Of a DNA stretch of 64,000 bases, positions 7,208 to 7,597 are shown in pieces (positions within the stretch are counted from its first letter, which is position 1; each line of letters opens with the position of its first letter). The translations under genes were made by a program, and so were the position numbers. A model generated the notes under the pieces. That model had not been told where the DNA came from and ran no database searches. It saw nothing but the letters and a program-made list of their open reading frames with translations. Source of the DNA: a virus (Duplodnaviria; Caudoviricetes); IMG/VR virus record IMGVR_UViG_3300035101_000015, positions 81,843 to 145,842 of that record. One strand, written 5' to 3'.

Positions 7208-7330
7208 TCCAGGGGTAGCTCAGTGGTTAGAGCTCTTTCCTCTCTGCAGCTACTTGTCTTCCAGACCGAAAGTGGAGAGTTTTCGTCTCACAAACGAGAG
7301 GTCGTTGGTTCGAGTCCAACCCCCTGGACC
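7208..7330 (+). ncRNA. tRNA-Y RNA chimera 1: tRNA body with Ro-binding module inserted in the anticodon arm (residual loop CUCACAA, anticodon CAC)
   Basis: Acceptor tccagggg/cccctgga, D arm tagctcagtggttagagc, T arm gttgg-ttcgagt-ccaac; insert ~7238-7284 contains ACTTGTC-ttcca-GACCGAA. Confidence 0.8.
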
Positions 7331-7334
7331 TCAT

Positions 7335-7462
7335 GGAGTGTGTAGCTCAATGGCAGAGCACGGTAAAATTTCCCTCTGCAACACTTGTCCACCCCCGGAC
7401 CGAAGTTGAGGGTTATCGGTTGCTAACCCCGGGGTTACGGGTTCGAGTCCCGTCGCACTCCC
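7335..7462 (+). ncRNA. tRNA-Y RNA chimera 2 (residual loop UUGCUAA, anticodon GCU)
   Basis: Acceptor ggagtgtg/cgcactcc, D arm tagctcaatggcagagc, T arm acggg-ttcgagt-cccgt; insert 7364-7417 has ACTTGTCC...GGACCGAA...GGGTTATC. Confidence 0.82.
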
Positions 7463-7466
7463 TCAT

Positions 7467-7597
7467 GGAACGTGTAGCTCAGCCAGGTAGAGCAGCGGTA
7501 TCCAGATTCCCTATGCAGAACTTGTCCGAGAGGACCGACGTATAGGGTTATCATTCAGCACCGCTGGTCACGGGTTCAAATCCCGTCGCGTTCCCCA
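7467..7597 (+). ncRNA. tRNA-Y RNA chimera 3, with encoded CCA (residual loop AUUCAGC, possible anticodon UCA)
   Basis: Acceptor ggaacgtg/cgcgttcc plus CCA, anticodon stem gcggt/accgc, T arm acggg-ttcaaat-cccgt; insert 7500-7552 has ACTTGTCC-gaga-GGACCGA...GGGTTATC. Confidence 0.82.

What the first reader, a model, noticed from the sequence alone, without database searches (positions are those of the whole stretch)
7208..7597. Three tandem tRNA-Y RNA chimeras with intact acceptor ends and an inverted Ro module in the anticodon arm
Seen: each unit has a normal 5' acceptor, D arm, T arm and 3' acceptor. The anticodon arm carries a 47-54-nt insert in which ACTTGTC comes before GACCGA and the two are closed by a short loop, the reverse of the order in Y RNAs. 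Both junctions between units read cctcatgga, suggesting tandem duplication. As I recall, canonical YrlA has its free ends in the Ro stem and a closed acceptor loop. These RNAs would be the circular permutant, with real tRNA ends open to RNase P, CCA addition and possibly aminoacylation. I do not know this architecture from described Y RNAs.
Basis: partly seen in the sequence, partly recalled or inferred. Interest (0 to 1): 0.92.

Follow-up and report, generated by a model that had tools for sequence, protein, structure and literature searches.

The report
tRNA-shaped Y RNAs beside phage Ro60
Right after a phage's Ro60 gene sit three small RNA genes built like real tRNAs with free acceptor ends, each carrying a hairpin copy of the Ro60 docking helix on its anticodon arm. 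This layout is the reverse of the bacterial Y RNAs (YrlA) described so far, and it turns out to be common in phages and to be the usual Ro60 partner in cyanobacteria.

Summary
Downstream of a phage rsr (Ro60) gene lie:
- one ordinary small Y RNA;
- three tRNA-shaped units (7209-7328, 7336-7461, 7468-7597);
- an orphan Ro hairpin;
- a terminator-like hairpin.

Each unit closes a 7/7 acceptor stem with its own two ends. Each has D and T arms with tRNA tertiary signatures and a loop-closed Ro60-binding helix on the anticodon arm. The ordinary YrlA register, read across neighbouring units, fails because the acceptor halves of neighbours do not pair.

The layout is a class. I collected 70 distinct members from phages, cyanobacteria and other bacteria, and 27 of 31 base pairs show compensatory changes. 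In a sample of 151 cyanobacterial genomes it occurs in 23 of the 26 that have rsr and in 0 of the 125 that lack it.

New details:
- In u1, u2 and most class members the Ro arm branches from the 5' strand of the anticodon stem and leaves a complete 7-nt anticodon-like loop.
- Position -1 pairs with position 73, U is usual at -2, and CCA is often encoded. This predicts RNase P cleavage at -2/-1.

I found no paper or Rfam family for this topology. This scan had already noted the class on other DNA. Processing, Ro60 binding and aminoacylation are untested.

The parts
5234..7081 (+). rsr (Ro60 orthologue). The likely start is GTG at 5351, preceded by AAAGGAG.
   Evidence: Pfam TROVE 8e-44 and vWA_Ro60 4e-55. 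The protein is 39-46% identical to the Ro60 genes beside homologous chimeras in L078, L089, L113, L145 and L159.
7106..7135 (+). Perfect 13-bp hairpin just after the rsr stop codon, with no U tract. Probably a 3' stabiliser or processing boundary for the rsr mRNA.
   Evidence: Inverted repeat I2; sequence read.
7136..7203 (+). Ordinary small Y RNA. The 5' strand (GACCGG...GUGGGUU) and the 3' strand (CCCACUGCAACUACUUGUC) come from the two ends of the RNA.
   Evidence: Fold of -27.9 kcal/mol, z = -3.15. Weak match to the nematode stem-bulge (Y RNA) family RF01656. Cognate duplex of -25.6 kcal/mol.
7209..7328 (+). Unit 1, a tRNA-shaped Y RNA. Acceptor 7209-7215 with 7321-7327; D arm; Ro 3' strand 7239-7259; loop; Ro 5' strand 7263-7281; split anticodon stem CU^CGU/ACGAG with loop CUCACAA at 7287-7293; T arm; nt 73 is A. 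U at 7208 pairs with A73, and CC follows.
   Evidence: ARAGORN -i; model R1 102 bits; duplex table; alignments A5 and A6.
7336..7461 (+). Unit 2, a tRNA-shaped Y RNA. Acceptor 7336-7342 with 7454-7460; Ro 3' strand 7371-7390; 6-nt loop; Ro 5' strand 7397-7414; anticodon stem CGG^GG/CCCCG with loop UUGCUAA at 7420-7426. G at 7335 pairs with C73 at 7461.
   Evidence: ARAGORN -i; R1 102 bits.
7468..7597 (+). Unit 3, a tRNA-shaped Y RNA. Acceptor 7468-7474 with 7587-7593; the 5-bp anticodon stem GCGGU/ACCGC encloses the Ro arm (Ro 3' strand 7508-7527, loop GAGA, Ro 5' strand 7532-7549). G at 7467 pairs with C73 at 7594. CCA is encoded at 7595-7597.
   Evidence: Rfam tRNA 49 bits. The minimum-free-energy fold gives this structure apart from the D arm, z = -3.75. 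R1 74.7 bits.
7598..7657 (+). Orphan Ro helix in the same permuted order. The 3'-type strand is at 7598-7616, a 20-nt hairpin closes it, and the 5'-type strand with GGGUUAUC is at 7637-7657. It has no tRNA body.
   Evidence: Repeat family D1; fold; cognate duplex -10.5 kcal/mol.
7685..7735 (+). Strong hairpin (7685-7722) followed by a U-rich tail. Probable end of the rsr-Y RNA transcription unit.
   Evidence: Inverted repeats I1 and I6; sequence read. It was not called by the simple terminator scan.

Best explanation
The three units are Y RNAs, the non-coding RNA partners of the phage's Ro60 protein, built on a tRNA scaffold in native tRNA order.

Shown by sequence and comparison:
- Each unit folds as a cloverleaf whose own 5' and 3' ends form the acceptor stem.
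- The Ro60-binding bulged helix (UUGNC paired with GNCCGA, plus an upper stem and the UUAUC motif) is a hairpin-closed extra arm. It either replaces the anticodon loop (u3) or branches from the 5' strand of the anticodon stem after 2-3 base pairs, leaving a complete anticodon-like stem-loop (u1, u2).

Inferred:
- The array is transcribed with rsr up to the hairpin at 7685-7735.
- Host RNase P releases each unit, probably cutting between U-2 and N-1 because N-1 pairs with nt 73, as in tRNA-His.
- 3' trimming and the CCA-adding enzyme finish the 3' end.
- The mature RNA has no free end in the Ro stem, so its only ends are protected, repairable tRNA ends.
- Ro60 docks on the arm, and the L-shaped body serves as the effector module that tethers Ro60 to a tRNA-recognising partner. 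PNPase or another exoribonuclease is likely, as in the Ro60/Y RNA/PNPase (RYPER) complexes. A second role may be to gate Ro60's cavity.

Evolution: read in the other register, a tandem array of such units gives ordinary YrlA. The two topologies are therefore interconvertible by duplication and by drift of which acceptor halves match.
For: Within the window:
- In-unit acceptor pairing is 7/7 in all three units. Duplex energies are -13.3, -8.6 and -7.7 kcal/mol in-unit against +0.3 and -1.8 across units.
- Each Ro 5' strand pairs best with the Ro 3' strand of its own unit.
- tRNA signatures read from the sequence: U8, A14, GG in the D loop, the UUCRANY T loop, and a covarying 15:48 Levitt pair (G:C in u1 and u3, A:U in u2).
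- ARAGORN -i and the Rfam tRNA model call the units.

Across the class:
- A scanner anchored on the D and T arms gave 59 of 77 units with a 7/7 acceptor and no positional freedom.
- Alignment A5 (12 sequences): 95.4% of cells paired, against 74% after shuffling and 38-54% when the partners are slid. 22 of 31 pairs show compensatory changes, including all 5 pairs of the split anticodon stem.
- Alignment A6 (70 distinct sequences): 97.7% paired, 27 of 31 pairs compensatory.
- 53 of 71 members keep a 7-nt anticodon-like loop.
- Position -1 forms a Watson-Crick pair with position 73 in 50 of 55 distinct leader-plus-acceptor combinations, against 3 of 24 ordinary tRNAs in the same loci. U is at -2 in 44 of 55.
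- CCA is encoded in 32 of 71 members.

Link to Ro60:
- 29 of 44 loci with scanner hits hold rsr within the fetched stretch.
- In whole 7-8 Mb genomes the only matches lie beside rsr.
- In 151 cyanobacterial genomes, 23 of 26 with TROVE have the RNA and 0 of 125 without TROVE do. Fisher p = 3e-24.

Precedent: M. smegmatis YrlA is cut by RNase P in its acceptor loop and receives CCA in vivo (PMC4201824).
Against: - There are no expression, end-mapping or binding data for any member.
- Single-sequence thermodynamics does not favour the model for u1 and u2. Their z-scores are -0.9 and +0.15. The model with refinement gives -31 and -35 kcal/mol against minimum free energies of -42 and -41.
- Acceptor, D and T pairing were partly selection criteria for the homologue set, and A6 was aligned to the model, so those helices are not fully independent tests.
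- In cyanobacterial arrays neighbouring units have similar acceptors, so cross-unit pairing is often 6/7.
- An 8-bp acceptor and a bulky arm on the anticodon stem may prevent ordinary tRNA functions.
- The effector partner is unknown.
- The phage record, about 78% complete, encodes no CCA-adding enzyme of its own.
Confidence: 0.8

Rival explanations
1. This is an ordinary tandem YrlA array. Each RNA would start at a GACCGA strand, run through a T arm, a closed acceptor stem-loop formed across the junction and the next D arm, and end at the next ACUUGUC strand.
For: The Rfam YrlA model gives weak partial matches spanning the junctions: 32.6 and 22.7 bits against a gathering score of 69. Canonical tandem arrays of this kind exist in other phages: L040, L041, Zooman and Sparky.
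Against: Acceptor halves of neighbouring units do not pair (+0.3 and -1.8 kcal/mol) whereas in-unit halves pair 7/7. The Ro 5' strand of u3 pairs with the next Ro 3' strand at only -3.5, against -14.7 with its own. Compensatory changes follow the in-unit register. CCA is encoded after nt 73.
Confidence: 0.03
2. These are real decoding tRNA genes interrupted by an intron-like insert. The Ro-like arm would be excised, or tolerated, to give tRNA-Val(CAC), a GCU tRNA and a third tRNA.
For: In u1, u2 and 53 of 71 class members, removing the arm would leave a canonical 5-bp anticodon stem and a 7-nt loop, in most with U33 and a purine at 37. ARAGORN -i models the units that way.
Against: - No bacterial or phage endonuclease for such inserts is known.
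- The phage record has no RtcB and no Rnl-type ligase.
- The insert carries every conserved feature of the Ro60 site and co-occurs strictly with rsr.
- Type i units (u3, L016, L113b) have no anticodon loop.
- u2 has a GCU loop but only a 5-nt variable region, not a Ser-type long arm.
- The conserved -1:73 pair is atypical for elongator tRNAs.
Confidence: 0.06
3. The elements are not separate RNAs. They are structured parts of the rsr mRNA 3' UTR that bind Ro60 in cis, for autoregulation or mRNA stabilisation.
For: They follow rsr directly, and I saw no clear promoter between them. A further permuted Ro hairpin overlaps the rsr ribosome-binding site at 5316-5345.
Against: Full tRNA bodies, encoded CCA and RNase P-type leaders are unnecessary for a cis site. 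In the 238-kb phage G001 the homologue lies 47 kb from rsr inside a tRNA cluster. In cyanobacteria the arrays lie upstream of rsr.
Confidence: 0.06

Closest known systems
YrlA (Y RNA-like A; Rfam RF02553; Chen et al. 2014, PMC4201824; structure in Wang et al. 2018, 10.1101/312249)
   Same: Encoded beside rsr, often in arrays together with small hairpin Y RNAs. Combines a Ro60-binding helix bearing the GNCGAA motif with a tRNA-like D arm, T arm and acceptor module. The Ro helix continues from the anticodon-stem position.
   Different: In YrlA the RNA ends lie in the Ro stem, the acceptor stem is closed by a loop, the T arm precedes the D arm, and there is no anticodon loop. Here the ends lie in the acceptor stem, the Ro stem is closed by a loop, the order is D then T as in tRNA, and most members keep an anticodon-like loop. 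RF02553 scores at most 32.6 bits against a cut-off of 69, and only across junctions.
M. smegmatis YrlA after processing (Chen et al. 2014)
   Same: 7-bp acceptor stem, cleavage by RNase P and a CCA tail on the acceptor 3' strand. The functional shape is a tRNA with open acceptor ends plus a Ro stem.
   Different: That RNA becomes two pieces (82 and 65 nt) held together by pairing, with free ends in the Ro stem as well. The units here would be a single covalent chain.
Metazoan Y RNAs, nematode stem-bulge RNAs and D. radiodurans Yrn1
   Same: Both strands of the Ro helix are recognisable, with the bulged C, the GNCCGA/UUGNC core and a GGGUUAUC motif after the upper stem. The small Y RNA at 7136-7203 gives a weak match to RF01656.
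   Different: Those RNAs have their termini in the Ro stem and no canonical tRNA body in tRNA order.
Circularly permuted tRNA genes (Cyanidioschyzon merolae and others) and two-piece permuted tmRNA genes. Named from my own knowledge and from the discussion in Wang et al. 2018; not examined here.
   Same: They show that tRNA-like RNAs tolerate circular permutation and that tandem duplication can generate it.
   Different: In those cases the permuted gene is processed back into the standard molecule. Here both topologies appear to be end products with a Ro60 arm.
b7a-tRNA of Burroughs and Aravind 2016, as summarised in 10.1101/312249
   Same: A predicted tRNA-shaped ncRNA linked to RNA-repair loci, said to occur occasionally beside Rsr.
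   Different: It is described as strongly resembling an authentic tRNA. The summary I could read mentions no Ro-binding arm. The paper itself is not held, so overlap could not be checked.

Membership tests
Y RNA (Ro60-bound ncRNA) | Bulged helix with the conserved Ro60 site (GNCCGA paired with UUGNC, bulged C) | tested here: met
   Present in u1-u3, in the small Y RNA and in the orphan hairpin. The N:N' pair covaries between U:A and C:G across the class (pair 74/109).
Y RNA (Ro60-bound ncRNA) | Encoded with, and co-occurring with, a Ro60/rsr gene | tested here: met
   The array starts 55 nt after the rsr stop codon. For the class: 23 of 26 TROVE-positive and 0 of 125 TROVE-negative cyanobacterial genomes.
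Y RNA (Ro60-bound ncRNA) | Ro helix formed by pairing of the RNA's own 5' and 3' ends | tested here: not met
   In u1-u3 the helix is closed by a 4-6-nt loop and the strand order is reversed.
Y RNA (Ro60-bound ncRNA) | Physical binding to Ro60 | not testable with these tools
   Needs EMSA or co-immunoprecipitation.
YrlA (RF02553) | Score at or above the Rfam gathering threshold (69 bits) | tested here: not met
   Best matches are 32.6 and 22.7 bits. Both are partial and span the unit junctions.
YrlA (RF02553) | tRNA-like module with a T arm 5' of the D arm and an acceptor stem closed by a loop | tested here: not met
   The order is D then T. The acceptor stem is open and is formed by the unit's two ends, 7/7.
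tRNA | Cloverleaf with a 7-bp acceptor, D and T arms and conserved tertiary nucleotides | tested here: met
   RF00005 scores u3 at 49 bits. ARAGORN -i calls all three units. U8, A14, the GG of the D loop, the T loop and the 15:48 pair were read.
tRNA | Uninterrupted anticodon arm, and use in decoding or aminoacylation | tested here: not met
   A 47-58-nt arm interrupts the anticodon stem or loop. Plain ARAGORN does not call the units. Aminoacylation cannot be tested here.

The most novel reading that the evidence does not exclude
These RNAs are working tRNA/Y RNA hybrids. RNase P would leave the N-1:N73 pair, which is G-1:C73 in u2, u3 and 40 of 55 distinct leader-plus-acceptor combinations in the class. 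That pair is the main HisRS identity mark. The RNAs would then be CCA-tailed and possibly charged. Their intact anticodon loops and elbows would let them carry Ro60 to translation or tRNA-surveillance machinery, or serve as decoys or sensors for anticodon-cutting defence nucleases during phage infection. The class would also be the ancestral form from which YrlA arose by a register shift in tandem arrays.
Probability: 0.15. Interest if true: 0.9.

Novelty: new variant of a known kind. Interest (0 to 1): 0.75.

Why it matters
- Bacterial Y RNAs are understood through one topology, YrlA. Chen et al. found few Y RNAs in cyanobacteria and deliberately discarded matches that overlapped tandem tRNA genes.
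- This class appears to supply the missing partners. It is present beside rsr in 23 of the 26 sampled cyanobacterial genomes that have rsr, and in several phage lineages.
- It gives a concrete intermediate for the proposed origin of YrlA from dimeric tRNAs.
- It makes several predictions that can be tested directly: RNase P cleavage at -2/-1, CCA ends, an 8-bp acceptor stem and a retained anticodon loop.
- For phage biology, it suggests that a virus can use host tRNA maturation to release stable Ro60 cofactors from a single transcript.

Tried and rejected
- Close relatives of the window. blastn of 7100-7700 against GenBank phages found no match. A protein-seeded search of IMG/VR with the window's Ro60 found nothing.
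- First junction pattern. It gave 33 hits, of which 32 were chance matches in coding DNA. Only L016 was real.
- An over-strict pattern found nothing.
- Simple motif scans of the named Ro60 phages Cashline, Phosso, Zooman, Gilson, BlueOtter and Lukilu found no permuted units. They carry canonical YrlA-like RNAs or none that I could detect. Sparky is also canonical.
- One search used wrong, reverse-strand coordinates and should be ignored.
- My first D-arm regular expression failed and was replaced.
- MAFFT alignments A1-A4 were too inconsistent around the anticodon region to carry one structure. I therefore aligned the type ii units alone (A5) and realigned everything with the covariance model.
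- Minimum-free-energy folding alone does not recover the cloverleaf for u1 and u2.
- Two scripts for energy evaluation failed before a working version ran.
- Three papers I wanted to check for prior description are not held: the reviews by Sim et al. 2020 and Sim and Wolin 2018, and Burroughs and Aravind 2016. The supplement of Chen et al. is not held either.

Full report
**What is there.** The window is the last 64 kb of a 145.8-kb, high-GC IMG/VR virus record. ORF 5234-7081 is a Ro60 orthologue, with Pfam TROVE at 8e-44 and vWA_Ro60 at 4e-55. Its likely start is GTG at 5351, behind AAAGGAG. Downstream of the stop codon, in order:
- a perfect 13-bp hairpin at 7106-7135;
- a small Y RNA of ordinary topology at 7136-7203, whose two ends form the Ro helix (z = -3.15, with a weak match to the nematode stem-bulge Y RNA family);
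- three units of 120-130 nt: u1 7209-7328, u2 7336-7461, u3 7468-7597;
- an orphan Ro helix closed by a hairpin at 7598-7657;
- a strong hairpin with a U-rich tail at 7685-7735.

**Checking the observation.** Each unit begins with seven bases that pair 7/7 with the seven bases that follow its T arm.
- u2 and u3 differ at two acceptor positions, and both differences are compensated.
- Each unit has U8, A14, GG in the D loop, a UUCRANY T loop and a 15:48 pair that covaries: G:C in u1 and u3, A:U in u2 (read).
- Plain ARAGORN ignores the units. With introns allowed it calls all three. The Rfam tRNA model aligns u3 end to end with a 58-nt insertion, at 49 bits.
- Inside each unit the strand that lies at the 3' end of ordinary Y RNAs (…UGCA..ACUUGUC) comes first, then a 4-6-nt loop, then the 5'-type strand (GACCGA..G…GGGUUAUC).
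- Both junctions read CCTCATGGA.

I computed duplex energies for every combination.
- Acceptor halves pair at -13.3, -8.6 and -7.7 kcal/mol within units. They pair at only +0.3 and -1.8 between the 3' half of one unit and the 5' half of the next.
- Each Ro 5' strand pairs best with the Ro 3' strand of its own unit. For example, u3 pairs at -14.7 with its own strand and at -3.5 with the following one.
- The weak YrlA matches of Rfam (32.6 and 22.7 bits, cut-off 69) span the junctions. They rest on the T and D arms only.

The across-unit register is not supported.

**Relatives.** There is no close relative of the window in GenBank phages or IMG/VR. IUPAC patterns that describe the permuted junction, with or without a T loop, retrieved real homologues from IMG/VR, JGI metagenomes and GTDB genomes among many chance hits.
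- A scanner anchored on a D arm and a T arm, which leaves the acceptor halves no positional freedom, found 77 distinct units with a loop-closed Ro helix. Of these, 59 have a 7/7 acceptor. Most of the others are false anchors.
- Phage contigs L078, L089, L113, L145 and L159 show the same locus plan as the window: small ordinary Y RNAs, one or two chimeras and rsr. Their Ro60 proteins are 39-46% identical to the window's.
- In the AT-rich 238-kb phage G001 the chimera sits in a tRNA cluster 47 kb from rsr.
- The named phages Sparky, Zooman, Cashline, Lukilu and Gilson, and the contigs L040 and L041, carry ordinary closed-acceptor YrlA arrays.

**Two subtypes.** Reading the alignments shows two arrangements.
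- Type i: a 5-bp anticodon stem encloses the Ro arm, and no anticodon loop remains. Members include u3, L016, L051a, L078, L113b and L159b.
- Type ii: the arm leaves the 5' strand of the anticodon stem after two or three pairs. The stem then resumes and closes a 7-nt loop. Members are u1 and u2 plus five phage-contig or metagenome units (L051b, L089, L113a, L159a, L145) and most cyanobacterial units. The split stems are written CU^CGU/ACGAG in u1 and CGG^GG/CCCCG in u2. The final C of the conserved UUAUC is usually the first base of the resumed stem.
- Of 71 aligned members, 53 have a 7-nt loop. Many of these have the CU-NNN-AA form of real anticodon loops, with varied "anticodons".

**Covariation.**
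- On the MAFFT alignment of 12 type ii units, with a structure I wrote by hand, 95.4% of cells are standard pairs. The figures are 74% after shuffling and 38-54% when partners are slid. 22 of 31 pairs show changes on both sides, including both outer and all three inner pairs of the split anticodon stem.
- A covariance model built from this alignment (R1) scores u1 and u2 at 102 bits and u3 at 74.7 bits.
- R1 collected 71 matches (70 distinct) from 36 sources. There, 97.7% of cells are paired and 27 of 31 pairs are compensatory.
- Caveats: acceptor, D and T pairing were partly selection criteria, and A6 is fitted to the model. The Ro helices and the split anticodon stem were not selected for.

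**Ends.**
- In 50 of 55 distinct leader-plus-acceptor combinations, the base before position 1 forms a Watson-Crick pair with nt 73 (G:C 40, U:A 8, C:G 2). Only 3 of 24 ordinary tRNAs in the same loci do so.
- U is at -2 in 44 of 55, and the leader ends in AUG in 31 of 55.
- The window follows the rule: U:A in u1, G:C in u2 and u3, and leader …CAUG in u2 and u3.
- CCA is encoded directly after nt 73 in 10 members and one base later in 22, so in 32 of 71 in all. u3 is among them.
- Taken together, these features mark the acceptor ends as the real termini. By analogy with tRNA-His, which I cite from established knowledge and did not test, they predict RNase P cleavage between -2 and -1.

**Link to Ro60.**
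- None of the search patterns contained anything from rsr, yet 29 of 44 loci with scanner hits hold rsr within the fetched stretch, typically a few hundred bases from the chimera.
- In whole 7-8 Mb genomes the only strong R1 matches lie at the rsr locus.
- In an evenly drawn sample of 151 genomes from the cyanobacterial class, R1 (E ≤ 1e-14) matches 23 genomes and TROVE matches 26. All 23 lie within the 26, and none of the 125 TROVE-negative genomes has a match. Fisher p = 3e-24.

**How it most likely works.** The shown and inferred steps are listed under the best explanation. In short, rsr and the array form one transcription unit. Host RNase P and 3' maturation cut out tRNA-shaped RNAs whose only ends are tRNA ends. 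The arm binds Ro60. The L-shaped body is the effector or tethering module, as proposed for YrlA (10.1101/312249). The precedent is M. smegmatis YrlA, which RNase P opens in its acceptor loop and which then gains CCA (PMC4201824). The phage record has no CCA-adding enzyme, RtcB or Rnl-type ligase. Maturation would therefore depend on the host, and a splicing scenario lacks an obvious ligase.

**Comparison with what is known.** The units work like Y RNAs and YrlA but fail two defining features of YrlA: the closed acceptor stem with termini in the Ro stem, and the Rfam threshold. They also fail one defining feature of tRNA, the uninterrupted anticodon arm.
- I found no paper describing this topology.
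- Chen et al. state that few YrlAs were found in cyanobacteria and that matches overlapping tandem tRNA genes were discarded. That could explain why the class was missed.
- Wang et al. discuss an origin of YrlA from dimeric tRNAs and the possibility of processing towards canonical tRNA shape. The arrays here are a natural intermediate, because the same array read in the other register is a YrlA array.
- Two reviews and Burroughs and Aravind 2016 (b7a-tRNA) could not be read, so prior mention cannot be excluded.
- This scan had already recorded the same class on other DNA: cyanobacteria, phages and a giant virus.

**Verdict.** This is a real, conserved and apparently unpublished topological variant of bacterial and phage Y RNAs. 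The window holds three good members covering both subtypes. Function beyond Ro60 partnership is inferred.

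Noticed in passing
window 8177-8329 (-) and 7745-8101 (-): Two tandem tRNAs with 9-nt anticodon loops that share the core CUAAAG. ARAGORN calls both Phe(AAA). A PTH2-like peptidyl-tRNA hydrolase gene follows them on the same strand, convergent with the Y RNA array.
   Followed up: no
window 5060-5345 (+): Three more Ro modules lie upstream of rsr. About 5066-5210 is a Y RNA with ordinary ends whose tRNA-like domain is entered through the D loop. 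About 5248-5309 is a small ordinary Y RNA. About 5316-5345 is a permuted Ro hairpin that runs into the rsr Shine-Dalgarno sequence and GTG start.
   Followed up: partly
window 2310-4933 (+): Directly upstream of the rsr locus lie a weak match to a MoxR-like AAA+ ATPase (AAA_5, below the Pfam cut-off) and a DUF2201 protein with VWA and metallopeptidase domains.
   Followed up: no
L201:4275-4398 (-), L257:2010-2136 (-), L268:4262-4390 (-): Cyanobacterial units with a third way of grafting. The lower Ro helix is closed by a 4-nt loop and the upper helix by its own hairpin, so the chain enters between the two helices.
   Followed up: no
L225:5659-5767 (+), L234:5048-5155, L261:6832-6944 and others: A ~109-nt relative just downstream of cyanobacterial rsr. 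It has an acceptor stem, a T arm and a Ro arm, but no D arm.
   Followed up: no
L036:100-140 (Microbacterium phage Zooman): In a canonical closed-acceptor YrlA, the loop that closes the acceptor reads G-CCA-AUCAU. That is a fused discriminator, CCA and leader, and it matches the inter-unit junction of the open form. The two topologies look interconvertible.
   Followed up: partly
window 8431-8457: Short perfect palindrome with weak matches to CRISPR repeat families, well below their thresholds. Probably just a hairpin.
   Followed up: no
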